DNA of 64,000 nt from Chloroflexota bacterium. GTDB lineage: Bacteria; Chloroflexota; Anaerolineae; Anaerolineales; UBA11858. Each line of letters opens with the position of its first letter. Positions within the stretch are counted from its first letter, which is position 1. Location: assembly GCA_016865865.1 (NCBI GenBank), contig VGOC01000005.1, positions 1,194-65,193 on the forward strand, written 5' to 3'. A program made the translations under genes and the position numbers. The notes beneath the pieces were generated by a model. The model had not been told where the DNA came from and did no database searches. It saw only the letters and a list, made by a program, of their open reading frames with translations. Shown one piece after another: positions 28,028-52,265 of this stretch.

Positions 28028-29029
28028 ATGAAATTCCTGATCGCCGGTTTCGGCTCCATTGGCCGCCGCCATTTTCGTAATCTGATAGCGCTTGGGGAGC
28101 GGAATATTCTCTTTTTACGCAGCCAGCATAGCACACTGCCCGATGACGAAATTGCTGGCTTCCCTGTAGAGACAAACATCGAAGCTGCTCTGGCCCACAA
28201 GCCGGATGCAGTGATTGTCTCGAACCCCACCTCACTTCATCTGGATGTAGCCATCCCGGCTGCTGAGGTGGGTTGTCATCTGTTGCTGGAAAAACCCCTC
28301 TCTCACTCGATGGCGCGCGTAGACGAATTACAGGCGGCTGTCGAGCGAAAATGCGGGAGGGTATTGGTGGGGTTCCAGTTTCGTTATCATCCACAACTGC
28401 GGCAAATCGCCGCGCTGCTGGCTGATGAGGCCATCGGGTACCCTGTGTCAGTCCAGGTGATTTGGGGCGAGTATTTGCCGGGGTGGCATCCCTGGGAGGA
28501 TTATCGTCAGGGCTTCAGCGCCCGCGCTGATTTGGGGGGCGGGGTGATCCTGACTTTGACTCATCCGTTCGATTATCTGCGCTGGCTGCTGGGAGATGTT
28601 GCTGCTTTGTGGGCTTTTACCGGCCGGGTGGATGACCTGGAAATCGCTGTGGAAGGGGTTGCTGAAATAGGATTGCGTTTTGCCAATGGGGTCTTGGGTA
28701 CCGTCCATCTGGATTATATTCAACGCCCGCATACCCACCGATTGGAATTAGTTGGTACGCAGGGGACAATTCGCTGGGATTATCTCGAGGGGATTCTGCA
28801 GGTGTTCAGGGCATCGAAGGAGGAATGGGAAGTCTATTTAGTCCCTGAGGGTTTCGAGCGCAATCAATTATTCCTGGATCAGATGAAACACTTTTTGGCT
28901 GTGGCGCGCGGAGATGAGCAGCCCTTGTGTACGCTGGCTGACGGAATCTGGGCGCAGAAGCTGGCTATGGCCGCGCACGAGTCGGCTCGTTCGGGAAGAG
29001 TAGTCGCCTGGAGTTCACCGACCAGCTAA
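28028..29029 (+). CDS. Gfo/Idh/MocA-family NAD(P)-dependent sugar oxidoreductase
   Basis: Has MKFLIAGFGSIGRRHFRNL and EKPLSHS. Confidence 0.8.
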   Translation: MKFLIAGFGSIGRRHFRNLIALGERNILFLRSQHSTLPDDEIAGFPVETNIEAALAHKPDAVIVSNPTSLHLDVAIPAAEVGCHLLLEKPLSHSMARVDELQAAVERKCGRVLVGFQFRYHPQLRQIAALLADEAIGYPVSVQVIWGEYLPGWHPWEDYRQGFSARADLGGGVILTLTHPFDYLRWLLGDVAALWAFTGRVDDLEIAVEGVAEIGLRFANGVLGTVHLDYIQRPHTHRLELVGTQGTIRWDYLEGILQVFRASKEEWEVYLVPEGFERNQLFLDQMKHFLAVARGDEQPLCTLADGIWAQKLAMAAHESARSGRVVAWSSPTS

Positions 29030-30603
29030 GGGGCCTGTCCGACTCGCCCCCACAAAATATTTGGAGAATCGCTCCGGGCAGAGAATAACATCCCATCTAT
29101 CTCTACCACAGTGTAGTACTGTTGGATATATGCATATGCTATTTCTTTATCTCCCCAGAGCTGCACGATCATATCGGGTTCGAGCTGACCAATCGAGTAA
29201 TCATAATCCCATTTCATATGGCCGGGGCGGATATCCTCTAGCGATGCGGGGGTGTGGCTGGGCAGATGGGCGATATAGGGATCGTTTTTCCCTAGTAGAT
29301 CGATAGCCGGGCGGTCGGCGAAATAGGGGATTGCCCCGGCGGTCACCACGGCGATGCTGGCCTGAGGGGTGGTGCTTTTGCGAACGGCCAAGGCGATGCG
29401 GGTGTCTTCTTTGTTGCCCTCGATGAAAATCGGCGGCTGGAGCAGCAGCCACCGCCTCAAATAGGCGGTGTCGCGCCGGATGAAGTTGAAATTTGCCAGC
29501 GAGGCCAGCGTAAAACCAACCAGTATCAGGTTGACGAAAACAGGCTCAAGACGTGAAAATTGTCGTCGGATGGCCTGGAGAATTCGATCAACGCAGACTA
29601 CGAAGAGCGTGAAGAAGGCCGGCATTGCGATGGCAATATAGCGGTTAGCCCCGCCTTTGTGCTCCCAGGCGTCCCCGCCAACATAAACGCTGTAAGCTAC
29701 TTGCCCTACGAATAGCAGGGCGAGTAGAAAGGTTTTTCGGTCCCTTTCGAAGATCAGATGTATGAAGGGGAGAGTCAGCAACATCCAGTTCAGGTCCCTC
29801 CCGAACTGATAGAATACATAGAGGCCGCGTTGGATGCGTAAGAGTAGAGGGATTCCGCTCATTTTCAGGTAATACGTATTGGGCAAAGGGTCGCCGTAAT
29901 ACCACAGACGGAAGAGGGTCTGGCTGGCGAGGAAGGCGGCCAACAGGCCAAGCTCCCAGGCGAGACGCCGCCAGCGATGGCGGGGGACGAAAAGAAAGGC
30001 AAATCCTACAAGGACGAGATAAGGCACGGTCATATCTACTCGGACGAGCGTGCCAAACCCAAGTAGAAGATAAGGCCAGGGCGAAAAGCGATCGTTCCGA
30101 ATTTCGAACAGCATTATCAAAACGGCTGCGTTGAGCAAAAGCACCAAAATACTGACTTCCATACCTTGCAAGCCCCAGTTGTTGAGAGGAGTGTAGAAGG
30201 CAGTCAGCAGCACCGCCAGAAAGGGCGGGATGAATTCATTCGAGATGTTTTCGGTGATCTTTTTGACGAAGATTAAATTTAACCCCAGAAAGATCCCCCC
30301 ACTGATTTGAATGGCCAGGCTGACTTTCGACGCCGGGATGGGAAACAGGTGGAAGAAGGACATGAAGATCACCCATAGCGGGTTTGTGTAGCCTTCGACC
30401 GGCGTTTCACCAGGGTTCCATACCAGCCCATATCCCTCGGCAAAGTTCCTGGCGTAGCGCATCGAAATCATCGCGTCGTCGAAAAGGACGAAATACCGGA
30501 TCCCTTCTATGACGAAGCTGGTTTTGTAGATATACATTCCCGCATAGAAAACATAAACGCCGAGAAGGGTGATAAGCAGCCAGTTCTTATTGAAGGTATG
30601 CAT
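29026..30603 (-). CDS. GT-C-like polytopic membrane glycosyltransferase
   Basis: 525 aa with more than 10 TM spans. The first-loop motif VLFDDAMISMRYARNFAEGYG is typical of GT-C enzymes. It is the only reverse-strand gene inside the first locus. Confidence 0.6.
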   Translation of the reverse strand: MHTFNKNWLLITLLGVYVFYAGMYIYKTSFVIEGIRYFVLFDDAMISMRYARNFAEGYGLVWNPGETPVEGYTNPLWVIFMSFFHLFPIPASKVSLAIQISGGIFLGLNLIFVKKITENISNEFIPPFLAVLLTAFYTPLNNWGLQGMEVSILVLLLNAAVLIMLFEIRNDRFSPWPYLLLGFGTLVRVDMTVPYLVLVGFAFLFVPRHRWRRLAWELGLLAAFLASQTLFRLWYYGDPLPNTYYLKMSGIPLLLRIQRGLYVFYQFGRDLNWMLLTLPFIHLIFERDRKTFLLALLFVGQVAYSVYVGGDAWEHKGGANRYIAIAMPAFFTLFVVCVDRILQAIRRQFSRLEPVFVNLILVGFTLASLANFNFIRRDTAYLRRWLLLQPPIFIEGNKEDTRIALAVRKSTTPQASIAVVTAGAIPYFADRPAIDLLGKNDPYIAHLPSHTPASLEDIRPGHMKWDYDYSIGQLEPDMIVQLWGDKEIAYAYIQQYYTVVEIDGMLFSARSDSPNILWGRVGQAP

Positions 30604-32403: not shown

Positions 32404-34229
<1,826 letters not shown>

Positions 34230-34240: not shown

Positions 34241-35062
34241 ATGTCCGATCTCCCTGATCTTTTCGATCTGTCATGCCGCGTGGCAATCGTCACCGGCGGG
34301 GCAGGGTTATTAGGGGCTGAGTTCTGCCAAACCCTGGCGTATGCGGGCGCAGCCGTTGTAATTGCAGATATAGATGAGGAAGTCGCCTCGAATTTGGCGG
34401 CTTCTCTGTCTCGAGGTGGATTCAGCGCCCTGGGCGTGAGGGCGGACGTGACCAGAGTTGATTCTGTTCGAGAAATGGTGGACTCAGCCCTGAAGAATTA
34501 CGACCGCCTCGACATCCTGGTCAACAGCGCTGCCCTGGATCCTAAGTTCGACCCACGATCGAAAAGAGCCCATTCCGGCGCTTTCGAAGACTATCCTCTC
34601 GATCTATGGCAGCAAGCCCTGGATGTCAATCTCACCGGGATGTTCCTGTGTTGTCAGGCCGCGGTGCAGCCCATGCTCGAACAGGAAAGCGGAGTGATTA
34701 TCAATATCGCTTCGATGTACGGCGTGGCTGCCCCCGACCAGCGTTTGTACCAGCGTGAAGGGCAGCCTCCTCAATACAAGCCGGTTTACTACACCGTCAC
34801 CAAAGCCGGGGTGCTGGGCATGACCAAATATCTGGCCGCCTATTACGCCGGAAAGAACATTCGTGTAAACGCGCTGACACCTGGGGGTGTGTTCAACGAG
34901 CATAGCGCAGAGTTTGTCGAGGCCTATTCTGCCCGCGCGGTGATAGGCCGCATGGCTAAAAAAGACGAGATGAACGGTGCCTTGCTCTTCCTGGCCTCCG
35001 ATGCCTCGAAGTACATGACCGGCGCCAATTTGATCGTCGACGGCGGATGGACAACCTGGTGA
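34241..35062 (+). CDS. Classical SDR-family oxidoreductase
   Basis: Has VAIVTGGAGLLGAEF, NSAA and YTVTKAG. Confidence 0.82.
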   Translation: MSDLPDLFDLSCRVAIVTGGAGLLGAEFCQTLAYAGAAVVIADIDEEVASNLAASLSRGGFSALGVRADVTRVDSVREMVDSALKNYDRLDILVNSAALDPKFDPRSKRAHSGAFEDYPLDLWQQALDVNLTGMFLCCQAAVQPMLEQESGVIINIASMYGVAAPDQRLYQREGQPPQYKPVYYTVTKAGVLGMTKYLAAYYAGKNIRVNALTPGGVFNEHSAEFVEAYSARAVIGRMAKKDEMNGALLFLASDASKYMTGANLIVDGGWTTW

Positions 35063-35067
35063 CTCCG

Positions 35068-35823
35068 ATGACCGAAGTCCTCGCCATTATCCCCGCCCGC
35101 GGCGGATCGAAATCTATCCCTCGTAAAAACATCCTCGACTTTGCCGGGCATCCGCTGATCGCTTACAGCATTGCTGCTGGGCTGGCCGCTGAAACGGTCA
35201 CGCGGGTGATCGTCTCCACCGATGATGAAGAGATCGCCGAGATCTCGCGTCGCTATGGGGCTGAAACCCCCTTCACTCGTCCCGAGAAGCACGCCCGGGA
35301 CCAGACCCCGGACCTGCCTGTCTTCCGGCACGCTCTGGAATGGTTGCAAACCAACGAAGGCTATCGGCCGGATATCGTCGTCCAATTACGCCCCACCTCC
35401 CCCTTTCGGCGAGTTCAGCACATTGACCAGGCTGTAGAGACTCTCGTCGAGCGCTCCGAAGCGGATGCCATTCGCACGGTCTGTATCCCTTTTCAAAATC
35501 CCTTCAAGATGTGGCGCATCGCTCCGGATGGTTTCATGCGGCCGATTGGCCTGGAGTTAGGAGTCGCTCACGAGCCTCATAACCAGCTCCGCCAGGCCTT
35601 ACCGGAGATTTACTGGCAAACCGGCTATGTGGACGCAGCCTGGGCAGATACGATCATGCTAAAAAATTCGATGACAGGCGACCGTATTTTGCCTCTCATC
35701 ATTGATCCCAGCGACTGGGTGGATATCGATTCGCCGGATGACTGGAAGAGGGCGGAGCGGTTGTTAGAGAGTGGGGAGATCACCTTGGATGATTTAGGAT
35801 TTCACTTGGAAGTAAACGAGTAG
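35068..35823 (+). CDS. Acylneuraminate (CMP-nonulosonate) cytidylyltransferase family
   Basis: Has MTEVLAIIPARGGSKSIPRKNILDFAGHPLIAYSI and VQLRPTSPFR. ATG at 35047 is an alternative start. Confidence 0.85.
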   Translation: MTEVLAIIPARGGSKSIPRKNILDFAGHPLIAYSIAAGLAAETVTRVIVSTDDEEIAEISRRYGAETPFTRPEKHARDQTPDLPVFRHALEWLQTNEGYRPDIVVQLRPTSPFRRVQHIDQAVETLVERSEADAIRTVCIPFQNPFKMWRIAPDGFMRPIGLELGVAHEPHNQLRQALPEIYWQTGYVDAAWADTIMLKNSMTGDRILPLIIDPSDWVDIDSPDDWKRAERLLESGEITLDDLGFHLEVNE

Positions 35824-35885
35824 ACAAGGTATACGAGTATTACCTGTCCACCTTGTGTACATGTACCTGTTACGGAGAATAAACT

Positions 35886-37775
35886 ATGCCTGAGATAAAA
35901 ATCGGCGACCGCCTGATAGGCGACGGACACCCAACTTATATCATTGCCGAGATCGGCGTCAATCACAATGGTATCCTGGAATACGCTTTCGAGTTGATTG
36001 ATGCTTCGGTGGATGCCGGCGCGGATGCAGTCAAATTCCAGAAACGAAACTTGGAGAAGCTCTACCCCAAGAAATACCTCGAAAATGCCAATATCGGCGA
36101 GAAAAACCTCAACTACCTGTTGCCCATTTTGCAACAGGTCGAACTTTCGGACGAAGATTATCACAAAATCGTCGCCTATTGTCAGAAGAAGGGGATTACT
36201 TTCCTGTGCTCGGCTTTCGATGAAGATAGCGCCGATTTCATCGAATCCCTGGGGGTTCCGGCCTTCAAAGTTGCCTCGGCGGATATGATCAATTTGCCAT
36301 TGCTTGACTATCTGATTGGGAAAGGCAAACCGATGATCGTGTCCACTGGCATGTCCCGTATGGAGGAGGTCGAAACCACAGTAGCCTTTCTCAAGGAGCG
36401 TCATGCTGAGTTCGCCTTGTTGCATTGTAATAGCGCCTACCCTGCGGCTTTCGCTGACATCAATTTGCGCTTTATGGAACGTCTGCGAGAGTTTGGGGTG
36501 CCGATAGGCTACTCAGGTCATGAGCGCGGGATCGCGGTCTCGACCGTCGCCGCGGCGCTGGGTGCTAGCATCATCGAACGGCATATCACCCTCGACCGCA
36601 CCATGGATGGCCCCGATCACGCTTCGAGCCTGGAACCGCATGGCTTCAAGAAAATGGTGCGCGATATCCGACAGGTGACCCTGGCTTTGGGAAGTGGGGA
36701 GGAGAAGTACTTCACGATGGGTGAAATCCTCAATCGGGAAGTCCTGGCCAAAAGCCTGGTGGCGACGCGGCGCATCGAACCTGGCGAGGAGATCACCCGC
36801 GAGATGGTCACTGTCAAAGGTCCTGGGCAGGGACTCTCCCCGCAGCGATATACCGATCTCATTGGTCGTGTGGCTGAACGCGTGATCGAAGAAGACGAAC
36901 CTTTTCTGCCCGTTGATTTGGGGCGCAGAGTCACGCTGGATGTGGAGCATACTCTGCCGATGGAATGGGGCTTTGTCGTCCGGTTCAACGACTTCGAGAA
37001 CATGCTGAAATATAACCCGCTGCTGTTGGAATTCCATTTCACCGATAAAGACCTGGATGAGCCTTACCGTGGCGAGGATTTGGATATTCAATTAGTCATC
37101 CATGCCCCAGAATTTTGGTCGAATCATCTGGTAGATTTGTGCACCTTCGATGATGATCACCGCCGGGCTTCGGTTCGACTCTTGCAGAAAGCCATCAACG
37201 TCAGCCGGGTTATGGCCCCACATTTCGCTGGCGTCCCGAAGGTGGTCGTCCACCCTGGGGCGGCCAGCATAGATAGCCCAATGATTGACCGTCGAGGCCT
37301 GTATGACAACCTCAAACGCTCAGTCGAAGAACTCGATTTCGATGGCGTGGAGTTGCTGATCGAAAACCTGCCCCCCCATCCCTGGTATTTTGGCGGTCAG
37401 TGGTTGACCAATGCTTTTATGGATACCTATGAAATCCGCGAATTCCTGGATTCGATGGGGATGATGACTTGTTATGACACCTCCCATCACAAATTGTATT
37501 GCAACTGGGCGAACGTTGATTTCTACGAGCAAGTCGGAGTCATTCTGCCTTATATTTCTCATTTGCATCTATCCGATGCCTCCGGCCTGGATGGGGAGGG
37601 GCTGCAGATTGGCCAGGGAAATATTGACTGGGTCGAATTCTTCAAGGTCGCCAAGGATTATCATGGCACCATGATCCCCGAAATCTGGCAGGGGCATCAG
37701 CGCGGCGGCGAAGGCTTTATTGTCGCCATCAACCGTCTCTCGGAGGCTTACTTCGAAGCGGTAGGAGATGCCTGA
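35886..37775 (+). CDS. Fusion protein: NeuB-type ulosonic acid synthase (with SAF domain) plus a xylose-isomerase-like TIM-barrel domain
   Basis: The N-terminal half has PTYIIAEIGVNHNGILEYAFELIDASVDAGADAVKFQKR, IIERHITLDRTMDGPDHASSLEP and RRIEPGEEIT. The C-terminal half has VIHAPEF, VVHPG, LIENL, CYDTSH and HLHLSD, the AP_endonuc_2/TIM pattern. Confidence 0.8.
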   Translation: MPEIKIGDRLIGDGHPTYIIAEIGVNHNGILEYAFELIDASVDAGADAVKFQKRNLEKLYPKKYLENANIGEKNLNYLLPILQQVELSDEDYHKIVAYCQKKGITFLCSAFDEDSADFIESLGVPAFKVASADMINLPLLDYLIGKGKPMIVSTGMSRMEEVETTVAFLKERHAEFALLHCNSAYPAAFADINLRFMERLREFGVPIGYSGHERGIAVSTVAAALGASIIERHITLDRTMDGPDHASSLEPHGFKKMVRDIRQVTLALGSGEEKYFTMGEILNREVLAKSLVATRRIEPGEEITREMVTVKGPGQGLSPQRYTDLIGRVAERVIEEDEPFLPVDLGRRVTLDVEHTLPMEWGFVVRFNDFENMLKYNPLLLEFHFTDKDLDEPYRGEDLDIQLVIHAPEFWSNHLVDLCTFDDDHRRASVRLLQKAINVSRVMAPHFAGVPKVVVHPGAASIDSPMIDRRGLYDNLKRSVEELDFDGVELLIENLPPHPWYFGGQWLTNAFMDTYEIREFLDSMGMMTCYDTSHHKLYCNWANVDFYEQVGVILPYISHLHLSDASGLDGEGLQIGQGNIDWVEFFKVAKDYHGTMIPEIWQGHQRGGEGFIVAINRLSEAYFEAVGDA

Positions 37776-39354
37776 TATCCCAGTGCGGCATTCGAAAGCA
37801 AATAGGATGGTATTCGAAAACTGGAAGCGCTTGCTTCCAGTTTTGTTGCCGCTATCTCTCGTGATCGCCGCCGGGATCTGGGGTGTGGATTTTGGCAATC
37901 ATTGGGATGAGGACAAACTCATCCCTCAGTTGCGTGACACAATCAGAACAGGCGTGTTTTTGCCTGGATGGTACCGTTATCCTTCGATTACATATTGGCT
38001 GAATCTATTAGGATTAGCACCATATATCGTCGGTATAGCTGCGAAAGGCGGGGCAGAACCAAGCGATCTTCGAGCTTATCTGATTGATGTTACCGGTGGA
38101 GACATCTTTCGCCTTCAAGCGCGCAAGATATTCATCGTCGTATCAGCTCTGGCGATTTTGTGGGTGTACTTGTTCATCCTTGTAGACAGAAAGCGCAGTT
38201 GGATGGAGTCGCTTTTGGGGGCTTTGTTCTTGGGATTTTCATGGGAAGTGGGGTATCACATGCGCTGGATTGCTCCTGACGGCGTCTTGATGCAGTTCGG
38301 CGCCTTGACCATTTTTTTTGTCTTTCTTGCTCTTCAGGCAGATCGAAGGAAATATTGGCTTTGGGCAGCGGCTGTAGCGGCAGGATTGGGGATGGGGTCG
38401 AAATATCCGGGGGGACTGCTTCTCGTCCCTGTGCTGATGGCTGCATTCAGGCTGAGGGTTCGATCTGGTTGGGGCATCCTTCTCGAAGTGCTGTTCGCCT
38501 TTGGAGTCAGTTTTGTTCTTTCTACCCCAGGCGTCTTCTTGCAGCCGAAAACTTTTTTCTCCGATGTCCTCTCGGAAGTCTCTCATTATCAGACCGGGCA
38601 TTATGGGTATGTGGTATCTCCATGGGAACACTTGGGATTGATGTCCACTTACTTCTCTCAGGTGACATTTTCCCACTACCGGGGTATTGCTTTGGTGCTT
38701 TTTCTGTTTTCTCTGGCGGGCATCTTCGCGCTGACGAGAGAATCCTGGCAGGATACAGTGTTGTTTCTGAGCTTTCCGCTCTTGTACGTGGTTTTCTTCA
38801 GCTTTCAGCGCGTGATGATCGTGCGAAATCTGTTGGTGCTGATCCCGTTTGGGGCAATTCTATCCGCCCGAGGTGTTTGTTATTTGTGGGATAAGATGCA
38901 TCATTGGCTGCCAAAGGCTGCTTTTGGATTGCTGATTCCGGCGATTGTCATCGTCAATGGCGTTTGGTTGTTTCGCGCTGCGCATTCGATCACCCTGCGA
39001 GGGACAGATGATTTCACTCGCCAATTGATCGCCTATTTCGACGAGAACCCACAGATGCGGTTTCTCCTATCTGATAAGGTGATGGACGACATCGAGTCTT
39101 TGGGAGAGCCAACTCCATCGAATGTGATCGGGGATGGGCTAGAGGGTGTTGATATGGTCGTTTTCTACGCTTCAGAGGGGATGGAGAAGCCTGCCGATTG
39201 GCCGCGAAATCGCCCAGGGATAGCAACGAAGTTCTTTGGCCCATGGGAAGTCAACTTTGACTACTATCCCACCTGGGCAGGCGATGATCGAGTATTGGTG
39301 ATGCCATTCGAGAAGGCTCGAGAGATGGGGATCAAAGCGCTCACAGATGAATGA
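37768..39354 (+). CDS. GT-C-like (ArnT/PMT_2-like) polytopic membrane glycosyltransferase
   Basis: 528 aa with more than 10 TM spans, an N-terminal loop DFGNHWDEDK and a soluble C-terminal domain of about 110 aa. Confidence 0.6.
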   Translation: MPDIPVRHSKANRMVFENWKRLLPVLLPLSLVIAAGIWGVDFGNHWDEDKLIPQLRDTIRTGVFLPGWYRYPSITYWLNLLGLAPYIVGIAAKGGAEPSDLRAYLIDVTGGDIFRLQARKIFIVVSALAILWVYLFILVDRKRSWMESLLGALFLGFSWEVGYHMRWIAPDGVLMQFGALTIFFVFLALQADRRKYWLWAAAVAAGLGMGSKYPGGLLLVPVLMAAFRLRVRSGWGILLEVLFAFGVSFVLSTPGVFLQPKTFFSDVLSEVSHYQTGHYGYVVSPWEHLGLMSTYFSQVTFSHYRGIALVLFLFSLAGIFALTRESWQDTVLFLSFPLLYVVFFSFQRVMIVRNLLVLIPFGAILSARGVCYLWDKMHHWLPKAAFGLLIPAIVIVNGVWLFRAAHSITLRGTDDFTRQLIAYFDENPQMRFLLSDKVMDDIESLGEPTPSNVIGDGLEGVDMVVFYASEGMEKPADWPRNRPGIATKFFGPWEVNFDYYPTWAGDDRVLVMPFEKAREMGIKALTDE

Positions 39355-39517: not shown

Positions 39518-41173
39518 ATGTCTTCGATAGCTGTTGTTGAAAAGATAAAGTCGCGTGTAATGACACGGGCTTTGCAATATAAGTCTGATTTGCAGATTTC
39601 ACGCCTTTCGCGGGATGTGGCGCGTTTTAGCAACCTGGATTCTCAGCAGAAACCGGTTGCATTTTTCAATGTCTCCTCACGTCTGGGGGGCATAAGCCAG
39701 AATGCTGCCTTCACTCTCCTGACATCGTGGGGATTGCAGTTCGCAGGCTCGCCGGTCGTCCATTTTGCTTGCCGCGCCGGGATGAGCCGCTGTGTGTTGG
39801 GGATGAACCCTGATGACCACACTGCATCCCCGCCATGTGAAACTTGTGTCGCCCAATCGAAGAAGTTGCTGGCTTCAACCCCAGCCCATTGGTTCGAATT
39901 CATTCCAAATGAAGCACTTGCCAATGAGATCTATTCTCTCGACCTCGAAGAACTGAGCAATTATCAATTTACAATTGACAATTCACAATTATCAATTCAT
40001 GGCAGGATCATTCCTCTTGGAGAACTGACCATCACTTCCCTCCGCTGGGCCCTACGCCAGCATCACCTTCCCGACGACGAAGCCGTTCGTCACCAACTGC
40101 GTGAATATATCCTTTCTGCCTATCGTGTGGCTGAGACATTCGATTCCTTTCTGACCGGAGTCGAGCCAGCCGTCGTTGTCCTCTTCAACGGATTGCAGTT
40201 CCCCGAAGCCACAGCCCGTTGGGTGACCCGCCATCTCGGCATCCGCACGATCACACATGAGGTCAGCTTTCAGCCCTTTTCGGCCTTTTTCACCGAGGGG
40301 GATGCCACCGCTTACCCCATCGAGATACCAGACGAATTCGAATTATCCCCTTCGCAGAACGCTCGCCTGGAAGCCTATCTCAGTCACCGGTTCCAGGGCG
40401 AGTTCACTATGGCTGGCATCCGTTTCTGGCCTGAGATGAGCGGGTTAGACAAAGCCTTTTTACAATTCGCAGCCCAATTCGAGCAGATCGTGGCGGTGTT
40501 CACAAATGTGGTTTTCGACACCAGCCAGCTCCACGCCAACACGGTTTTCCCGCAGATGTTCGCCTGGTTGGACTTGATCCTCGAAATCATCAAATCGCAT
40601 CCTGAAACGCTTTTTGTGATTCGCGCTCATCCTGACGAAAAACGCCCCGGCACTCGCAAGCAGAGCCGCGAAAGCGTCAGTCATTGGGTGGCGCACAATG
40701 GCGTTGATCAGCTCCCCAATGTGATCTTCATCGATTCGGGCGAATATATCAGCTCCTATGATCTGATCCGCCGGGCAAAGTTCGTGATGGTATATAACTC
40801 TTCCATTGGCCTGGAAGCGACGCTACTAGATACGCCCGTCTTGTGCGGTGGGAAAGCCCGCTTCACTCAATACCCTATCGTACACTTTCCGCAGACGCCA
40901 GCGGAATACCGACAAGTTGCTGAAGAATTTCTGGCTTCCGAAAAGTTGATCGTGCCAGAAGAGTTCGAACGCAATGCCAGACGGTTTTTGTATTATCAAC
41001 TTTTCCGCGTTTCTTTGCCTTTCGATGAATTCATCGAAGCTCATCCTATCCCAGGATATGTGCAGCTCAAACCCTTCTCCTGGCGCGATCTGCAACCCGA
41101 ACACTCGCCCACGTTGCGCGTCGTCGTGGATGGAATCCTCGATACTAAGCCCTTCGTTCTTTCGGATGAATAA
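39518..41173 (+). CDS. Capsule_synth-like (KpsC/KpsS-type) GT-B protein with an N-terminal Cys cluster
   Basis: Has VAVFTNVVFDTSQL, LFVIRAHPDEKR and VMVYNSSIGLEATLLDTPVLCGGKARF. The Cys cluster is CRAGMSRC...CETC. An in-frame 42-nt heptamer repeat lies at 39958-39999. Confidence 0.6.
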   Translation: MSSIAVVEKIKSRVMTRALQYKSDLQISRLSRDVARFSNLDSQQKPVAFFNVSSRLGGISQNAAFTLLTSWGLQFAGSPVVHFACRAGMSRCVLGMNPDDHTASPPCETCVAQSKKLLASTPAHWFEFIPNEALANEIYSLDLEELSNYQFTIDNSQLSIHGRIIPLGELTITSLRWALRQHHLPDDEAVRHQLREYILSAYRVAETFDSFLTGVEPAVVVLFNGLQFPEATARWVTRHLGIRTITHEVSFQPFSAFFTEGDATAYPIEIPDEFELSPSQNARLEAYLSHRFQGEFTMAGIRFWPEMSGLDKAFLQFAAQFEQIVAVFTNVVFDTSQLHANTVFPQMFAWLDLILEIIKSHPETLFVIRAHPDEKRPGTRKQSRESVSHWVAHNGVDQLPNVIFIDSGEYISSYDLIRRAKFVMVYNSSIGLEATLLDTPVLCGGKARFTQYPIVHFPQTPAEYRQVAEEFLASEKLIVPEEFERNARRFLYYQLFRVSLPFDEFIEAHPIPGYVQLKPFSWRDLQPEHSPTLRVVVDGILDTKPFVLSDE

Positions 41174-42071
41174 GCTACGATATAGCGTTAGTCGGGTTGC
41201 TAACCTGATCCACCTCTCCTCGAAAGCAAAATTCGCTATCAAACTCGCTCGCCGCCAGGTACGCCGCGCGGCCGCAACGCTGAAGCATGGTTTTCTGGCG
41301 AGCGCGCCTGTTTTCTTCGCCAATTCCTTCCCCAAGAGCGGCACGCATCTGTTGATCCAGGCGCTGCAGGGATTGGCCCAACTCGGCCCGGCGGTGGATA
41401 GCGGCCTGCCGGCGGTGGTCACTTTCGATGGCCCAACCGGGCAGCCTCGCCCTCTGGATACGATCCTGCGGGATTTGCGGCGCTTCCAGCCTGGCGACGT
41501 AGGGTATGGCCATTTGCATGCCCTCCCGGAAATCGTTTCGTTGCTGACCCAGGATGGGATGGCCCCCTTTTTCATCTACCGCGATCCCCGTGATGTCGTC
41601 GTTTCGCACGTGTATTATGTCACCGAGATGGAGCCAAATCACGTGCACCATTATTATTATCGGGATGAATTGACCAGTTTCGATGAACGACTTCGGGTGA
41701 GCATTTTGGGACGTCCCGAGTTGGGTGGGCTTTTCCCTGATATTCGCAGGCGATTCGAACCTTATTTGGGCTGGCTCGAACGTCCCGAGGTCTTGATTCT
41801 GCAATTCGAGGATTTCATCACCCAACAAGAGCAGACTCTGCTTCGGGTGCTGGATCACGCCCGAGGTCGCGGGTTCCCGATCACCCTCGAGGAGCAGGAA
41901 GCGCTCAGGGTCTTGAAATCAGCCATTGATCCGATGAAATCTCCGACCTATCGTATGGGTCAAGTGGGCAAATGGCGCGAGTCATTCACCGAGGAACATA
42001 AATCGTGGTTCAAAGAAATATCCGGAAATCTTCTGGTACGCCTGGGGTATGAGCAGTCGGATGATTGGTGA
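41166..42071 (+). CDS. Sulfotransferase
   Basis: Has FANSFPKSGTHLLIQAL and FIYRDPRDVVVS. The ATG at 41166 overlaps the upstream stop; the longer track ORF from 40974 was rejected. Confidence 0.8.
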   Translation: MNKLRYSVSRVANLIHLSSKAKFAIKLARRQVRRAAATLKHGFLASAPVFFANSFPKSGTHLLIQALQGLAQLGPAVDSGLPAVVTFDGPTGQPRPLDTILRDLRRFQPGDVGYGHLHALPEIVSLLTQDGMAPFFIYRDPRDVVVSHVYYVTEMEPNHVHHYYYRDELTSFDERLRVSILGRPELGGLFPDIRRRFEPYLGWLERPEVLILQFEDFITQQEQTLLRVLDHARGRGFPITLEEQEALRVLKSAIDPMKSPTYRMGQVGKWRESFTEEHKSWFKEISGNLLVRLGYEQSDDW

Positions 42072-43049: not shown

Positions 43050-43718
43050 ATGTCTCGACTTATTGCCCTCGTCCCCATGCGGCACAGTTCCCAACGGGTG
43101 CCGGGAAAAAATTATCGCCTGTTGGGGGGGAAGCCGCTGTTTCACTACATCATTGCCACACTGCTCGAGGTTCCCCAGATCGCTGAAGTGGTAGTGAATA
43201 CCGACAGCCCAGAGATTGCCGAAGGTTTGGGGAAATCCTTCCCGAGCGTGCGGGTGCTGGAACGACCCGCGCATTTGCAAGCCCCTGAAGTGCCGATGAA
43301 TGAAATCCTGGCTTACGACACATCCCAGATCGAAGCTGATTTCTATTTGCAAACCCACAGCACAAATCCCCTGTTGTGCGCCGAGACGATATCGAAAGCA
43401 ATCAGAGTATTTTTGGAGCAGTATCCGGCCCATGATTCTCTTTTCTCGGTGACAAGTCTAAAGACCCGCCTGTACGATCAACTGGGGCGGGCGATCAACC
43501 ATAATCCGGCTTACCTGCTGCAAACCCAGGATTTACCCCCGGTTTACGAGGAGAATTCCTGCATCTACATCTTTACGAAAGAAACCTTGCTGGCGCGCCG
43601 AAACCGCCTGGGGGAACGGCCTCTGATGTTCGAGATCGCCGCCGTGGAGGCCTGGGATATCGATGAGGAACTAGATTTCGAGATAGTGGATTTCTTGATG
43701 AGGAGAAAAGGTGATTAG
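43050..43718 (+). CDS. CTP_transf_3-family cytidylyltransferase (third in the window)
   Basis: Has LIALVPMRHSSQRVPGKNYRLLGGKPLFHYIIATL and VVNTDS. Confidence 0.78.
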   Translation: MSRLIALVPMRHSSQRVPGKNYRLLGGKPLFHYIIATLLEVPQIAEVVVNTDSPEIAEGLGKSFPSVRVLERPAHLQAPEVPMNEILAYDTSQIEADFYLQTHSTNPLLCAETISKAIRVFLEQYPAHDSLFSVTSLKTRLYDQLGRAINHNPAYLLQTQDLPPVYEENSCIYIFTKETLLARRNRLGERPLMFEIAAVEAWDIDEELDFEIVDFLMRRKGD

Positions 43719-43789
43719 ATATTGGTGATTGGGTATTAGGTTAGACGCTTTCCTGATACCCACTACCCAATACCTAATACCCAATCACC
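43710..43789. repeat. Inverted pair of period-7 repeats (TGATTGG/CCAATCA family) containing a perfect 18-bp inverted repeat
   Basis: ggtgattgggtattaggt (43724-43741) pairs with acctaatacccaatcacc (43772-43789). The right arm ends at the base before the ATG at 43790. Confidence 0.85.
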
Positions 43790-44749
43790 ATGTTTACCAT
43801 TCTATTCACCGCCCCCTACATGATCCCCTCCCTCGATCGCTTCCGGCCTATGCTGGAGAAATATGGCCTGGAGTTGATCGTCGCCGAGGTAAAGGAACGG
43901 CTCGACGAAGAGGAGATCATCGCTTATGCCGGTCGGTTCGATGGCGCGATCTGCGGGGATGACCGCTATTCGGCGCGCGTCCTGGAGGCCTGCGCGCCGC
44001 GCTTGAAGGTGATTTCCAAGTGGGGCACCGGGATCGATTCCATCGACCAGGAAGCCTGCGCTCGCCTGGGGATCAAGATCGGCAATACGCCTAACGCTTT
44101 TACGCTGCCGGTGGCAGATACCGTGATGGGGTATATCCTGGCCTTCGCCCGCCGACAACCCTGGATGGATCGTGATATGAAAAAGGGTCGGTGGCAGAAG
44201 CTTCCAGGTTGGTCATTGAGCGAATGTACATTGGGCGTGATCGGTGTGGGAAATATCGGCAAGGCGGTCCTCCGCCGGGCCAGCGCCTTCGGCATGGAGT
44301 TGTTGGGCAATGATGTCGTCGAGGTTGATCCTGTTTTTGTGCGCGAAAACCGTGTCGAGATGACTTCACTCGAAGATTTGATGAAGCGGGCTGATTTCGT
44401 CAGCGTGAATTGCGATCTCAACCCCACCAGCCATCATTTGATCAATGCGCGGACATTGGCGTGGATGAGACCTGAATCGGTGTTGATCAATACCGCGCGC
44501 GGCCTCGTCGTTGACGAATCTGCCCTGATCGCGGCGCTGCAATCGGGCGGCATCGCCGGGGCGGCGTTGGATGTTTTCGAAACAGAACCCCTCCCAGAAG
44601 GGAGTCCGCTGCTCCACATGGATCAGGCGATGGTCGCGCCGCATAACGCCAATTCCAGCCCAATGGCCTGGGAGCGAGTCCACTGGAATACTATCCGTAA
44701 TCTGCTGGATGGACTGGGAATCGATTGTTCGAATTTGCCATCCCAATAA
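43790..44749 (+). CDS. D-isomer-specific 2-hydroxyacid dehydrogenase family (PGDH-like)
   Basis: Has LGVIGVGNIGKAVLRRA, INTARGLVVDESAL and LDVFETEPLP. Confidence 0.85.
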   Translation: MFTILFTAPYMIPSLDRFRPMLEKYGLELIVAEVKERLDEEEIIAYAGRFDGAICGDDRYSARVLEACAPRLKVISKWGTGIDSIDQEACARLGIKIGNTPNAFTLPVADTVMGYILAFARRQPWMDRDMKKGRWQKLPGWSLSECTLGVIGVGNIGKAVLRRASAFGMELLGNDVVEVDPVFVRENRVEMTSLEDLMKRADFVSVNCDLNPTSHHLINARTLAWMRPESVLINTARGLVVDESALIAALQSGGIAGAALDVFETEPLPEGSPLLHMDQAMVAPHNANSSPMAWERVHWNTIRNLLDGLGIDCSNLPSQ

Positions 44750-44779
44750 CCAGCAATCGTTTAGCGACTCGACAAAAAT

Positions 44780-45538: not shown

Positions 45539-45571
45539 CGTTCGAACGTAAAACGTGAAACGTCAAGAGCA

Positions 45572-49530: not shown

Positions 49531-49548
49531 GGTTATTTGCCCTACGCG

Positions 49549-51471: not shown

Positions 51472-52265
51472 TATCGGTTGTCACCCCCTCTTTCAATCAG
51501 GCCAAATATCTCGAAGCGACCATTCGCTCGGTATTGGAGCAGGGTTACCCGCACATCGAATATATCATCATTGATGGCGGCTCGACTGATGGCAGCGTCG
51601 AGATCATCCGCAAGTATGGTAAGCGATTGGCCTGGTGGGTCTCGGAACCCGACCAGGGTCAGACTGCGGCCATTAATAGAGGTTTTGCCCATGCCAGCGG
51701 AGAGATCTTCGCCTGGCTGAATTCAGACGATACGTACAATCCCAACGCTGTAGCCGAGGCCGTCGCTTTCTTGAGTGCGCACCCCGAGGTTGGCCTGGTA
51801 TATAGCGACGCCGACTTCATCGACTCCAACGGAGGGGTTGTGGGAAAATTCAACGCTCGACAGACCAGTTATCGGCGTTTGCGCCGCGGCGGGGTATACA
51901 TCCCTCAGCAGGCCGCTTTCTGGCGGGCGGATTTGTGGCGTCAAGTCGGCCCGTTGGATCCAAGCTATTATTTCGCGATGGATTACGATTTGTGGGTGCG
52001 GCTGGCAAGGGTATCGGATATTCGATATTATCCCGGCCACACCTGGGCTAACTTCCGCTTGCACGACGACGCCAAGACCATCGCCGCCGATGAACGCTGC
52101 TGGCCAGAGATGCTGCGCATCCACCGCCGCGATGGCGGAAGCTGGTTCTCGTGGATCTACCTGCGTTACTTTGCCCGCCGCGCCCTCTCCCCGCTGATCA
52201 AATGGCGGTTGCGCCGTAAATTTCGCACTCGGGGAACATATCGTCCAACGCCCCAGGCGCTATGA
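51444..52265 (+). CDS. GT2 glycosyltransferase, close paralog of the N-terminal domain of the preceding fusion
   Basis: Has [22 protein letters not shown] and [11 protein letters not shown]. The start is uncertain (GTG at 51444 or 51453). Confidence 0.8.

What the first reader, a model, noticed from the sequence alone, without database searches (positions are those of the whole stretch)
35068..37775. NeuB-type synthase fused to a xylose-isomerase-like TIM barrel, next to a NeuA-type cytidylyltransferase
The 629-aa protein joins a complete NeuB + SAF unit (residues about 1-340) to a domain of about 280 aa. That domain has the HxP / HPG / EN / D.SH / H.H.SD pattern of sugar-phosphate isomerase/epimerase (AP_endonuc_2) TIM barrels.

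A fused isomerase or epimerase could generate or epimerise the aldose (or aldose phosphate) substrate. It could also process a 9-phosphate product. Either way the domain sits directly on the synthase. I am not aware of a characterised example. The preceding SDR (34241) and NeuA homolog complete a compact second ulosonic-acid module.
Basis: partly seen in the sequence, partly recalled or inferred. Interest (0 to 1): 0.62.

Follow-up and report, generated by a model that had tools for sequence, protein, structure and literature searches.

The report
NeuB synthase fused to metal TIM-barrel
This is a real, widespread but biochemically untested two-enzyme fusion that most likely makes the sialic-acid-like sugar KDN from mannose-6-phosphate, with the extra barrel domain probably removing the leftover phosphate rather than isomerising a sugar.

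Summary
The 629-aa ORF (35886..37775, +) is a genuine NeuB + SAF + xylose-isomerase-like TIM-barrel fusion. Four independent metagenome assemblies span it with no gaps. More than 120 homologue clusters and at least 591 GTDB species genomes carry the same NeuB-TIM linkage.

It is not unprecedented. The architecture occurs in cultured bacteria (Rothia, Kocuria, Gulosibacter, Ensifer). It was also noted in Serratia marcescens KL1/KL2 NeuB, which together with neuA is needed for KDN capsule synthesis (PMC9000132). The role of the extra domain was not tested there.

The TIM domain is an orphan branch of the superfamily. Its nearest sequence relatives are MJ1311 and endonuclease IV (multi-metal phosphoesterases), not ketose epimerases.

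Every TIM-associated NeuB has lost Arg314, which contacts the N-acetyl group of ManNAc, and has E134→D. These are the two changes reported for eukaryotic synthases that use 6-phosphorylated sugars. TIM-less controls keep Arg314.

Loci in cultured bacteria contain only a cytidylyltransferase plus the fusion. In Ensifer a mannose-6-phosphate isomerase gene lies directly upstream.

Best reading (about 45%): a bifunctional KDN-9-phosphate synthase/phosphatase. Rivals are an aldose-supplying isomerase and an NDP-sugar hydrolase. In Anaerolineales the gene sits in a conserved locus (PAPS synthase, SDR, NeuA, fusion, KpsC/S-like transferase, sulfotransferase).

The parts
35886..37775 (+). Whole fusion gene: 629 aa, NeuB-SAF-TIM barrel
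   Evidence: ORF. Pfam domains. The same architecture in the 120 best homologue clusters. Four independent contigs span it with no gaps.
35994..36701 (+). NeuB catalytic domain (aa 37-272). The PEP, metal and catalytic residues are kept (equivalents of NmNeuB E25, K53, Q55, K129, S132, S154, Y186, S213, H215, E234, H236, D247). The E134 equivalent is Asp133 (nt 36282-36284).
   Evidence: Pfam E 6.8e-85. Alignment to N. meningitidis NeuB 4ipi/1xuu. Residue table. NCBIfam NeuB_NnaB scores 354 bits, below its cut-off of 399.65.
36750..36920 (+). SAF (antifreeze-like) domain, aa 289-345. Gly312 (nt 36819-36821) replaces NmNeuB Arg314.
   Evidence: Pfam SAF E 1.6e-09. R314 aligns with G312 in 'VKGPGQG'. 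All TIM-associated NeuBs have G/S/T/A/C here, while 7 of 7 TIM-less controls keep Arg.
36921..36956 (+). Linker between the SAF domain and the TIM barrel (about aa 346-357)
   Evidence: No regular secondary structure before strand 360-365 in the full-length model. First barrel strand at domain residues 15-20.
36957..37772 (+). Xylose-isomerase-like TIM barrel (aa 358-629). Family-wide invariant core: R366, D369, E382, H384, H406, D531, H534, H561, D564, E571, G572, E599, W601, H604. The subtype triad H456/E493/N494 is present in the window protein.
   Evidence: Pfam AP_endonuc_2. AF2 pLDDT 95. Foldseek. PDB profile search: MJ1311 1.6e-17, endonuclease IV 9e-09. Conservation by class.
35047..35823 (+). 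NeuA-type cytidylyltransferase (CTP_transf_3), the presumed CMP-ulosonate synthetase. An alternative start lies at 35068.
   Evidence: Pfam E 6.4e-22. NCBIfam PseF scores 157 bits, below its cut-off of 205.7. Upstream of the fusion in 68 of 82 loci. Adjacent in Rothia, Kocuria, Gulosibacter and Ensifer.
34241..35062 (+). Classical SDR oxidoreductase with an unknown, probably tailoring role. It is specific to the Chloroflexota version of the module.
   Evidence: Pfam adh_short_C2 E 6.7e-51. Best NCBIfam match PRK09186, 193 bits, below its cut-off. Present in 67 of 82 loci. Absent from the actinobacterial two-gene modules.
32502..34229 (+). Bifunctional ATP sulfurylase / APS kinase (PAPS synthase)
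   Evidence: Pfam PUA_2 + ATP-sulfurylase + APS_kinase. Syntenic with the fusion in 53 of 82 loci, including an otherwise housekeeping neighbourhood in L001.
39518..41173 (+). KpsC/KpsS-like Capsule_synth protein, a candidate CMP-ulosonate-dependent glycosyltransferase
   Evidence: Pfam PF05159 E 3.5e-07. Directly downstream of the fusion in 66 of 82 loci. In this window a PMT_2 gene (37768..39354) is inserted between the two.
40974..42071 (+). Sulfotransferase
   Evidence: Pfam Sulfotransfer_1 E 7.1e-09. A homologue lies within 9 kb in 38 of 82 loci.

Best explanation
The gene most likely encodes a bifunctional ulosonic-acid-9-phosphate synthase/phosphatase, probably specific for KDN.

Proposed pathway:
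1. The NeuB-SAF half condenses phosphoenolpyruvate with a 6-phosphorylated, non-N-acetylated hexose. Mannose-6-phosphate from central metabolism is the most likely substrate. The product is KDN-9-phosphate.
2. The fused TIM barrel uses a His/Asp/Glu-rich metal centre related to those of MJ1311, endonuclease IV and CbiR. It hydrolyses the 9-phosphate to give free KDN. In this role it would replace the HAD-family phosphatase used by Bacteroides and animals.
3. The adjacent NeuA homologue makes the CMP-sugar.
4. The KpsC/S-like enzyme transfers it.
5. PAPS synthase and the sulfotransferases sulfate the glycan.

What is shown:
- The fusion and its domains.
- The NeuB-TIM linkage across phyla, as a fusion or as adjacent genes.
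- The conserved synteny.
- The residue signatures.
- The superfamily placement.

What is taken from the literature: a NeuB carrying an extra COG1082 domain, together with NeuA, underlies KDN production in Serratia.

What is inferred: the phosphorylated substrate, the phosphatase activity of the TIM domain, and the identity of the sugar made by the Chloroflexota enzyme.
For: 1. The NeuB-TIM link is obligate. The TIM subfamily (726 representatives at 50% identity) is almost always fused to NeuB-SAF, with or without an N-terminal CBS module. When it stands alone, its gene lies immediately downstream of a NeuB gene.

2. Self-sufficient two-gene modules occur in cultured bacteria. In Gulosibacter, Rothia and Kocuria the polysaccharide cluster contains only CTP_transf_3 plus the fusion as ulosonate genes. 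There is no NeuC, no dehydratase/aminotransferase pair and no HAD phosphatase. Serratia KL1/KL2 has only neuA plus neuB (with a COG1082 domain), makes KDN and Neu5Ac at about 20:1, and needs neuB for this (PMC9000132).

3. In Ensifer canadensis a type-II mannose-6-phosphate isomerase/GMP gene lies directly upstream of NeuA and the CBS-NeuB-TIM gene.

4. All TIM-associated NeuBs carry E134→D and R314→G/S/T/A/C while keeping every PEP, metal and catalytic residue. Seven of seven TIM-less, SAF-containing controls keep R314. PMC8208679 reports exactly these two changes as what separates eukaryotic, sugar-6-phosphate-using synthases from bacterial NeuB. It places residue 134 near where the 6-phosphate would sit.

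5. All biochemically characterised KDN pathways (B. thetaiotaomicron, Prymnesium, human) run Man-6-P → KDN-9-P → phosphatase (PMC6200933).

6. The nearest sequence relatives of the TIM domain are MJ1311 (E 1.6e-17) and endonuclease IV (E 9e-09 and weaker). Epimerases and isomerases score E above 1e-4. The most frequent weak NCBIfam match is the phosphodiesterase CbiR, in 18 of 32 members. The window protein keeps 7 of the 9 positions that align with endonuclease IV metal ligands: H406, H456, E493, D531, H534, H561 and E599.

7. No HAD motif-I ORF is present in the 64-kb island, and no HAD gene was seen among the scanned ORFs.
Against: - No activity has been measured for any member of this family.
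- I could not retrieve the Serratia NeuB sequence. That its COG1082 domain belongs to this TIM subfamily is therefore likely but unverified.
- Structure comparison does not separate phosphoesterases from epimerases. All matches have TM 0.6-0.7, and UlaE has the highest TM score.
- The endonuclease IV analogy is imperfect. The Asp/His pair of the third zinc site lies in an insertion that this family lacks.
- The CBS/actinobacterial subclass, the group that includes the cultured two-gene-module organisms, has S/N456 and Q493 instead of His and Glu. Only 5 of the 9 endonuclease IV ligand positions are therefore family-wide.
- Some contexts fit a 9-phosphate poorly. An NDP-hexose 4,6-dehydratase-like gene is directly upstream in L076 and L078. 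L086 holds a full dehydratase/aminotransferase/NeuC-like set. Both suggest 6-deoxy precursors, which have no 9-hydroxyl to phosphorylate.
- E134→D is also found in 29% of environmental bacterial NeuBs. It is suggestive, not diagnostic.
- The full-length monomer model gives no defined inter-domain geometry (pTM 0.58).
Confidence: 0.45

Rival explanations
1. The TIM domain is a sugar or sugar-phosphate isomerase/epimerase that makes the aldose for the synthase. Examples would be ketose to aldose, or 2-epimerisation to the manno configuration.
For: The domain has the xylose-isomerase-like fold. Ketose 3-epimerases and UlaE are among the best structural matches. Weak NCBIfam matches include fructoselysine 3-epimerase, hydroxypyruvate isomerase and Ru5P 3-epimerase. 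The window protein has the E-D-H-E tetrad positions E493/D531/H561/E599. The N-terminal CBS module in many members recalls KdsD (SIS + CBS).
Against: Sequence profiles rank epimerases and isomerases well below MJ1311 and endonuclease IV. All family scores are far below the curated cut-offs. The position of the catalytic Glu is Gln in all 120 CBS-class members and in 46 of 66 long representatives. The extra invariant histidines (H384, H406, H534, H604) have no counterpart in the epimerase metal tetrad. Mannose-6-phosphate isomerase is a housekeeping function and is encoded separately right next to the module in Ensifer. This reading also leaves the 9-phosphate, implied by the NeuB residue signature, without a phosphatase.
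Confidence: 0.17
2. The TIM domain is a phosphoesterase acting before the synthase. It would release a free aldose from a nucleotide sugar or a sugar-1-phosphate, for example GDP-mannose or a tailored GDP-hexose to hexose. This would be a non-homologous substitute for NeuC, LegG or PseG.
For: The affinity to phosphoesterases is the same as for the best explanation. Several neighbours act on GDP-mannose: an enzyme that makes it lies upstream in Ensifer, a GDP-mannose-4,6-dehydratase-like gene is directly upstream in L076 and L078, and an epimerase/dehydratase is directly downstream in L077. L085 has a dehydratase and an aminotransferase nearby. NeuC-like genes are absent from most loci.
Against: It does not explain the eukaryote-like E134D and R314-loss signature linked to phosphorylated substrates. 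No natural KDN pathway from free mannose is known, and characterised KDN synthases use Man-6-P. L086 has both a TIM gene and a NeuC-like Epimerase_2 gene. Dehydratase neighbours may simply serve other sugars of the same glycan.
Confidence: 0.15
3. The TIM domain tailors the ulosonic acid after condensation. Possibilities are an enolate-based dehydratase or epimerase acting next to the 2-keto group, or an oxidative multinuclear-iron enzyme. It might work together with the SDR.
For: The superfamily includes dehydratases acting beta to a carbonyl (IolE, AsbF) and MNIO oxidases. MbnB appears among the structural matches, and two members show weak ApyH matches. The SDR is conserved next to the module in Chloroflexota.
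Against: In Serratia the product of the neuA + neuB(COG1082) module is authentic KDN, identified against standards by three methods. The domain therefore does not change the sugar's structure there. The SDR is absent from the actinobacterial and Serratia modules.
Confidence: 0.08
4. The fusion is an artefact, namely two genes joined by a frameshift or an assembly error.
For: None was found.
Against: Four independent contigs are gap-free across 35800-37900. The architecture is identical in the 120 best clusters and in 80 of 82 loci. It is also present in complete genomes of cultured bacteria.
Confidence: 0.01

Closest known systems
Serratia marcescens KL1/KL2 capsule NeuB (Anderson et al. 2022, PMC9000132)
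   Same: [quoted passage not shown] Genetics show it is required for KDN (plus minor Neu5Ac) and for capsule production.
   Different: I could not obtain its sequence, so subfamily identity and the presence of a CBS module are unverified. It serves an enterobacterial group-1-type capsule, not a Chloroflexota sulfated-glycan locus. The extra domain's activity was not tested.
CBS-NeuB-SAF-TIM proteins of Actinomycetota and Ensifer (Rothia dentocariosa WP_311161939.1, Kocuria massiliensis WP_085528650.1, Gulosibacter molinativorax, Aquihabitans; annotated 'N-acetylneuraminate synthase family protein')
   Same: The same NeuB and TIM subfamilies (about 40% identity over the full length). The same R314 loss and E134D. 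The same invariant TIM core. A NeuA gene is adjacent.
   Different: They have an extra N-terminal CBS module of about 120 aa. The TIM subtype is S/N456, Q493, T494 instead of H456, E493, N494. No SDR, PAPS synthase or sulfotransferase is nearby. They are uncharacterised.
Bacteroides thetaiotaomicron KDN-9-P synthase BT1714 with HAD phosphatase BT1713; human NANS with NANP
   Same: The proposed chemistry is the same: Man-6-P (or ManNAc-6-P) + PEP → ulosonate-9-P, then dephosphorylation, then CMP activation (PMC6200933). Eukaryotic synthases share the E134D and R314-loss signature (PMC8208679).
   Different: In those systems the phosphatase is a separate HAD-fold protein. Here the candidate phosphatase is a fused metal-dependent TIM barrel of a different superfamily. 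Whether BT1714 carries the residue signature was not checked, because no sequence was available.
MJ1311 of Methanocaldococcus jannaschii (PDB 3WQO, 'D-tagatose 3-epimerase-like protein')
   Same: It is the closest solved structure by sequence profile (E 1.6e-17) and the top Foldseek hit. It shares the HAP, HPG, EN, D..H, H.H.D and E.GxGxI motifs.
   Different: Identity is about 20%. It is a stand-alone archaeal protein of unknown function. From my own recollection of the 3WQO paper, not checked here, it keeps all nine endonuclease IV zinc ligands. Our family has an invariant Gly where MJ1311 has the last His ('DDEH' against 'DGEG').
Endonuclease IV (Nfo/End; PDB 5ZHZ, 1QTW, 2X7V)
   Same: Same fold. 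Seven of its nine trinuclear-site ligand positions align with identical residues in the window protein. By general knowledge the enzyme is a phosphodiesterase that also has 3'-phosphatase activity.
   Different: Our domain lacks the insertion carrying the Asp/His pair of the third zinc site. It scores far below the nfo family cut-offs. There is no reason to expect DNA binding. Only 5 of the 9 positions are conserved family-wide.
Neisseria meningitidis NeuB (PDB 1XUZ/1XUU)
   Same: It is the best solved relative of the N-terminal half (E 5.5e-54, 330 aligned residues). All PEP, Mn2+ and catalytic residues except E134 are identical.
   Different: It uses unphosphorylated ManNAc, has the essential Arg314, and has no C-terminal TIM domain.

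Membership tests
NeuB / nonulosonic-acid synthase family (PF03102 + SAF) | Pfam NeuB and SAF domains above the gathering thresholds | tested here: met
   NeuB scores 284.8 bits (cut-off 22.1) and SAF scores 38.6 bits (cut-off 21).
NeuB / nonulosonic-acid synthase family (PF03102 + SAF) | PEP, metal and catalytic residues of NmNeuB: E25, K53, Q55, K129, S132, S154, Y186, S213, H215, E234, H236, D247 | tested here: met
   All are identical in the window protein and in essentially all TIM-associated NeuBs.
N-acetylneuraminate synthase proper (TIGR03569 NeuB_NnaB equivalog) | Score above the curated equivalog cut-off | tested here: not met
   354.3 bits against a cut-off of 399.65.
N-acetylneuraminate synthase proper (TIGR03569 NeuB_NnaB equivalog) | Arg314 of the SAF domain, which is essential in NmNeuB and conserved in bacterial SAF-containing NeuBs (PMC8208679) | tested here: not met
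   Gly312 occupies this position. The clade has G/S/T/A/C throughout, and TIM-less controls keep Arg.
Pseudaminic acid synthase (TIGR03586 PseI) | Score above the curated equivalog cut-off | tested here: not met
   252.3 bits against a cut-off of 340.25.
Sugar-6-phosphate-using sialic acid synthases (NANS / KDN-9-P synthase type) | E134→D and loss of R314, the differences from bacterial NeuB reported in PMC8208679 | tested here: met
   D133 and G312 in the window protein. The pattern is D plus G/S in 77 of 78 TIM-fused ORFs in the loci and in all classes. The signature is suggestive, not proven diagnostic.
Sugar-6-phosphate-using sialic acid synthases (NANS / KDN-9-P synthase type) | Activity with Man-6-P or ManNAc-6-P and not with the free sugars | not testable with these tools
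   This needs an enzyme assay.
Xylose-isomerase-like TIM barrel superfamily (PF01261 AP_endonuc_2) | Pfam match above threshold and an eight-stranded barrel with the conserved residues at the C-terminal ends of the strands | tested here: met
   91.3 bits against a cut-off of 31.1. AF2 pLDDT 95 with eight strand/helix units. 200 PDB matches at E of 0.001 or better, all from this superfamily at the top.
Ketose 3-epimerases (D-tagatose/D-psicose 3-epimerase, UlaE, fructoselysine 3-epimerase) | Family model score above cut-off | tested here: not met
   Fructoselysine 3-epimerase scores 18 bits against 305. Ru5P 3-epimerase scores 16 bits against 200.
Ketose 3-epimerases (D-tagatose/D-psicose 3-epimerase, UlaE, fructoselysine 3-epimerase) | A Glu-Asp-His-Glu metal tetrad in which the two Glu residues act as catalytic bases (general knowledge of the family) | tested here: inconclusive
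   The aligned positions E493, D531, H561 and E599 are present in the window protein. The first Glu is Gln in all 120 CBS-class members and in 46 of 66 long representatives.
Endonuclease IV (TIGR00587 nfo) | Family model score above cut-off | tested here: not met
   The window domain gives no match at E of 0.05 or better. Only 3 of 32 family members match weakly. The PDB profile hit to Mtb endonuclease IV is E 9e-09.
Endonuclease IV (TIGR00587 nfo) | Nine ligands of the trinuclear metal site | tested here: not met
   Seven of nine aligned positions are kept in the window protein and five of nine family-wide. The Asp/His pair lies in a 4-residue insertion that is absent here.
CbiR cobamide-remodelling phosphodiesterase (NF041277) | Family model score above cut-off | tested here: not met
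   20.5 bits against a cut-off of 105. It is nevertheless the most frequent weak match, in 18 of 32 members.
HAD-type KDN-9-P / Neu5Ac-9-P / Kdo-8-P phosphatases | HAD fold with the DxDG(T/V) motif I | tested here: not met
   The C-terminal domain is a TIM barrel, not a HAD fold. No motif-I ORF is present in the window. Any phosphatase function here would be analogous, not homologous.

The most novel reading that the evidence does not exclude
The TIM barrel defines a previously unrecognised class of sialic-acid-9-phosphate phosphatase. It would be a metal-dependent enzyme related to endonuclease IV and MJ1311 that is fused to, or encoded right after, a dedicated sugar-6-phosphate-using NeuB clade. 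If so, the NeuB::TIM architecture, together with the R314-loss and E134D signature, would be a sequence-readable marker for KDN-type ulosonic acid synthesis. It would apply to at least 591 bacterial species. These include clinical Serratia capsules, oral Rothia, and the Chloroflexota of lakes and sludge, where the sugar would feed a sulfated glycan.
Probability: 0.4. Interest if true: 0.7.

Novelty: new member of a known kind. Interest (0 to 1): 0.5.

Why it matters
KDN is the second most abundant nonulosonic acid in wastewater granular-sludge matrices. The authors of that study state that KDN and Neu5Ac synthases cannot be told apart from annotation (PMC10483923). KDN is also the main sialic acid of the infection-associated Serratia marcescens capsule types (PMC9000132).

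If the NeuB::TIM fusion is a self-contained KDN-9-phosphate synthase/phosphatase, three things follow:
- It explains how a two-gene module (neuA + neuB) is enough to make CMP-KDN from central metabolism.
- It gives a sequence marker that separates KDN producers from Neu5Ac, Leg and Pse producers in genomes and metagenomes.
- It adds a phosphomonoesterase function to a TIM-barrel branch whose nearest structure, MJ1311, has no known function.

In Anaerolineales the conserved locus (PAPS synthase, SDR, NeuA, fusion, KpsC/S-like transferase, sulfotransferase) is a concrete genetic candidate for the sialylated and sulfated polymers seen chemically in such communities.

The architecture itself is not new. 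It sits in RefSeq under a generic name and has been remarked on once in print.

Tried and rejected
- Frameshift or mis-assembly: rejected.
- Filing the TIM domain under a named family: NCBIfam scans of the window protein and of 32 diverse members gave only sub-threshold matches spread over CbiR, epimerases, hydroxypyruvate isomerase and nfo.
- Foldseek against the PDB confirmed the fold but could not rank phosphoesterases against epimerases (TM 0.6-0.7 for all).
- Full-length AlphaFold2 monomer: confident domains but pTM 0.58, so nothing could be learned about domain packing or channelling. Model coordinates are not exposed, so I could not measure the active-site geometry.
- The first literature searches found nothing on the fusion. 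The Serratia remark surfaced only with 'sugar phosphate isomerase' + 'nonulosonic'.
- The paper on phosphate-binding determinants of human NANS (PubMed 25242570) is not held.
A 7-sequence subset worked.
- Non-orthologous displacement test: I looked for close TIM-less NeuBs lacking R314 that sit next to a HAD phosphatase. The four closest plasmid-borne TIM-less NeuBs all keep R314 and lie in aminotransferase-type clusters, so no such case was found.
- I could not fetch the Serratia NeuB sequence.
- KpsC/S-like neighbour against PDB sequences: no hit.
- The SDR against the PDB and NCBIfam: only generic SDR matches, so no functional assignment.

Full report

Yes. Window 35886..37775 (+) is one uninterrupted 629-codon ORF. 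Pfam places NeuB at residues 37-272 (E 6.8e-85), SAF at 289-345 and AP_endonuc_2 at 397-604 (E 1.1e-25, 91 bits against a cut-off of 31).

- The exact sequence is held by at least eight lake-water metagenome runs. Contigs from four of them cover 35800-37900 with no gaps and at most one substitution.
- The 120 best homologue clusters (75-90% identity, 627-641 aa, from NCBI, JGI, ENA and Logan) all carry the same three domains.
- In 80 of 82 related loci the NeuB domain lies directly upstream of the TIM domain.

**2. How widespread is it, and is the link to NeuB specific?**

An exhaustive search of 1.84 billion representatives with the C-terminal 284 aa alone found 726 clusters at 50% identity (129 at E ≤ 1e-30). 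They fall into three length classes:
- About 630 aa: NeuB-SAF-TIM.
- About 750 aa: CBS-NeuB-SAF-TIM.
- About 275 aa: stand-alone proteins, many of them truncated gene calls.

Genuinely stand-alone copies lie immediately downstream of a separate NeuB gene (L085, L086). This TIM subfamily is therefore a dedicated NeuB partner, whether fused or adjacent.

Most are Anaerolineales. Desulfobacterales, Dehalococcoidia and Saccharibacteria also appear.

The CBS class belongs to Actinomycetota. It includes cultured Rothia dentocariosa and R. mucilaginosa, Kocuria, Gulosibacter, Aquihabitans and Phycicoccus. It also occurs on an Ensifer canadensis megaplasmid. NCBI names these proteins 'N-acetylneuraminate synthase family protein'. 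JGI names them 'sialic acid synthase SpsE/sugar phosphate isomerase/epimerase'.

**3. Has anyone described it?**

Once, in passing. Anderson et al. [quoted passage not shown] Those loci carry only neuA and neuB for sialic acid synthesis. The strains make KDN with about 1/20 Neu5Ac. Deleting neuB abolishes both sialic acid and capsule.

The extra domain was not studied there, nor in the follow-up paper. A large phylogenetic survey of NulO synthases does not mention it. I could not retrieve the Serratia sequence, so its membership of this TIM subfamily is probable but unverified.

**4. What is the TIM domain?**

An AlphaFold2 model of residues 346-629 is a confident eight-stranded barrel (pLDDT 95, pTM 0.92). 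The invariant residues sit at the C-terminal ends of the strands.

Foldseek confirms the xylose-isomerase-like fold but does not discriminate. MJ1311 (3WQO), D-psicose and D-tagatose 3-epimerases, UlaE and endonuclease IV all align at TM 0.6-0.7.

Sequence profiles are more telling. A profile of 32 diverse members hits MJ1311 at E 1.6e-17 and endonuclease IV at E 9e-09 to 1e-05. A putative sugar isomerase comes only at 1.6e-04, and UlaE and L-ribulose 3-epimerase at 0.01-0.1.

Against NCBIfam every match is far below its cut-off. The most frequent is the phosphodiesterase CbiR, in 18 of 32 members.

The window protein keeps seven of the nine positions that align with the endonuclease IV metal ligands: H406, H456, E493, D531, H534, H561 and E599. 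The Asp/His pair of the third site lies in an insertion that this family lacks.

Across 306 full-length members the universal core is R366, D369, E382, H384, H406, D531, H534, H561, D564, E571, G572, E599, W601 and H604. Two co-varying subtypes exist. The window class has H456/E493/N494. The CBS class and most long representatives have S,N456/Q493/T494. Gln at 493 removes the Glu that is a catalytic base in ketose 3-epimerases, which argues against an epimerase mechanism. It also shows that the endonuclease IV analogy is only partial.

The domain is therefore an orphan branch of the superfamily, with a His-rich centre that is presumably multi-metal.

**5. What does the NeuB half say?**

It aligns over 330 residues with N. 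meningitidis NeuB (E 5.5e-54). I tabulated the known functional residues across 50 diverse TIM-associated NeuBs: both fusion classes, the distant phyla, and the unfused neighbours in L085 and L086. All keep E25, K53, Q55, K129, S132, S154, Y186, S213, H215, E234, H236 and D247. All have Asp at position 134 and a small residue (G, S, T, A or C) at position 314. The only exception is one degenerate sequence, P0173.

In the fetched loci, 77 of 78 TIM-fused ORFs are D134 with G or S at 314.

The controls without a TIM partner but with a SAF domain keep Arg314 in 7 of 7 cases. They are NmNeuB, the window's other NeuB (12019..13131), an L064 paralogue, and the four closest plasmid-borne homologues from Ensifer adhaerens, Halorussus, Azospirillum and Sinorhizobium mexicanum.

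PMC8208679 reports that R314 is the one conserved SAF-domain catalytic residue of bacterial NeuBs and is essential in NmNeuB. It also reports that eukaryotic synthases, which use 6-phosphorylated sugars, differ by exactly E134→D and loss of R314. It places residue 134 near where the 6-phosphate would lie.

The TIM-associated clade therefore carries the signature of a synthase that does not grip an N-acetyl group and probably accepts a phosphorylated sugar.

**6. Genomic context**

In Anaerolineales the order PAPS synthase, SDR, NeuA, NeuB::TIM, KpsC/S-like, sulfotransferase is strongly conserved. Of 82 loci, NeuA is present in 68, the SDR in 67, the KpsC/S-like gene directly downstream in 66, PAPS synthase in 53 and a sulfotransferase in 38. 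In L001 the core sits among housekeeping genes.

In cultured Actinomycetota the only ulosonate genes in the polysaccharide cluster are CTP_transf_3 and the fusion, flanked by glycosyltransferases. This is the same two-gene logic as in Serratia.

In Ensifer canadensis a bifunctional mannose-6-phosphate isomerase / mannose-1-phosphate guanylyltransferase gene lies directly upstream of NeuA and the fusion.

No HAD-type phosphatase was found in any of these loci or in the 64-kb window.

Some contexts fit less neatly. An NDP-hexose 4,6-dehydratase-like gene is directly upstream in two deltaproteobacterial loci, together with radical SAM enzymes. L086 holds a full dehydratase/aminotransferase/NeuC-like set.

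**7. Most likely mechanism**

All characterised KDN pathways run Man-6-P + PEP → KDN-9-P → phosphatase → CMP-KDN (PMC6200933). A two-gene module that makes KDN needs a phosphatase.

The NeuB clade looks like a phospho-sugar user that ignores the N-acetyl group. The partner domain is closest to metal phosphoesterases. A separate Man-6-P isomerase is at hand where one is encoded at all.

I therefore favour a bifunctional KDN-9-phosphate (or close analogue) synthase/phosphatase, at about 45%. 'KDN-type product' is somewhat more likely than the specific phosphatase assignment.

The rivals are:
- An aldose-supplying isomerase or epimerase (about 17%).
- A phosphoesterase that frees the aldose from GDP-mannose or a tailored NDP-hexose (about 15%). 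This fits the dehydratase-adjacent loci better but not the residue signature.
- A product-tailoring enzyme (about 8%). This is disfavoured because the Serratia module yields authentic KDN.

The SDR is specific to the Chloroflexota version and remains unexplained. It may tailor the sugar before sulfation.

**8. Novelty and verdict**

The fusion is real, ancient and common. The claim of no precedent needs correcting.

The window protein is a new member, from Chloroflexota and of the H/E/N TIM subtype, of an architecture that is already in databases and has been remarked on in Serratia. The second domain of that architecture has never been assayed.

What is new here is the hypothesis that the domain is a non-HAD ulosonate-9-phosphate phosphatase, and the observation that R314 loss plus E134D co-segregates perfectly with the TIM partner. 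Both are cheap to test. Interest is moderate at 0.5. It would rise to about 0.7 if the phosphatase role and the KDN marker value are confirmed.

Noticed in passing
window 39518..41173 and 6390..8081; L003-L082: Two paralogous KpsC/KpsS-like (Capsule_synth, PF05159) genes are present. A homologue lies directly downstream of the NeuB::TIM fusion in 66 of 82 loci. It has no sequence match in the PDB. It is a candidate CMP-ulosonate (KDN?) transferase of the beta-Kdo-transferase type.
   Followed up: partly
window 32502..34229, 8074..9078, 26981..28024, 40974..42071, 49537..51471: The island holds a PAPS synthase, three sulfotransferases and a GT2-sulfotransferase fusion. The PAPS synthase is syntenic with the fusion in 53 of 82 loci, even where the surroundings are housekeeping genes (L001). 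The island looks like a locus for a sulfated ulosonic-acid glycan.
   Followed up: partly
window 43050..46399: A third cytidylyltransferase module consists of CTP_transf_3, a D-2-hydroxyacid dehydrogenase, an SDR and an MptE-like (DUF115) protein. It is conserved downstream in 17-28 of 82 loci. In Dehalococcoidia locus L077 a CTP_transf_3 and 2-hydroxyacid dehydrogenase pair directly precedes the fusion. Its function is unknown.
   Followed up: no
window 9997..17483: This is the first ulosonic-acid module. It comprises a PseB-like dehydratase, an RmlD-like reductase, a SAF-less NeuB (12019..13131, which keeps the Arg314-equivalent by alignment and has Leu at 134), a GT4, an aminoglycoside-3-N-acetyltransferase-type enzyme, DUF4910 and CTP_transf_3.
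   Followed up: partly
window residues 456/493/494 of the fusion (nt 37251-37253, 37362-37367); P0392-P0510: The TIM domain has two strictly co-varying subtypes. One is H/E/N (all 120 close relatives of the window protein). The other is S,N/Q/T (all 120 CBS-class members and most long representatives). One metal site may be present in only the first subtype.
   Followed up: partly
P0173 (640-aa representative): In this fusion the NeuB catalytic residues are degenerate (K53R, Q55P, K129F, H215N, E234V, D247A), yet the TIM domain still matches at E 1.3e-44. It may be a case of the TIM domain working without an active synthase half.
   Followed up: no
L083/L084 7602..8852: A 120-aa NeuB/SAF remnant is followed by an intact stand-alone TIM gene in 2.3-Mb and 8.7-Mb contigs. 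It lies next to a GMC oxidoreductase and a PMT_2 glycosyltransferase.
   Followed up: no
L085 6860..10838: In an archaeal-looking locus with an S-layer protein, NeuB and a stand-alone TIM are followed by a TagD-like cytidylyltransferase (PF01467), an asparagine synthase, a CDP-alcohol phosphatidyltransferase and B12 radical SAM enzymes. This raises the possibility of a phospho-linked ulosonate.
   Followed up: no
window 37768..39354: A PMT_2 membrane glycosyltransferase gene overlaps the end of the fusion gene by 8 nt. It is inserted between the fusion and the KpsC/S-like gene. Among the 82 loci compared, this insertion was seen only in L005. Four further PMT_2 genes lie in the window (29026..30603 region, 46409.., 48019.., 58555..).
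   Followed up: no
window 52000..54300: A low-GC patch (GC 0.47 against about 0.54) contains an N6/N4 DNA methylase (53364..54260) in the middle of the glycan island.
   Followed up: no
L088 7217..8287, L090 7147..8226, L091 7187..8257: A conserved protein of about 357 aa with no Pfam match lies immediately upstream of the cytidylyltransferase and fusion pair in Gulosibacter, Rothia and Kocuria. It may be the ulosonate transferase or polymerase.
   Followed up: no
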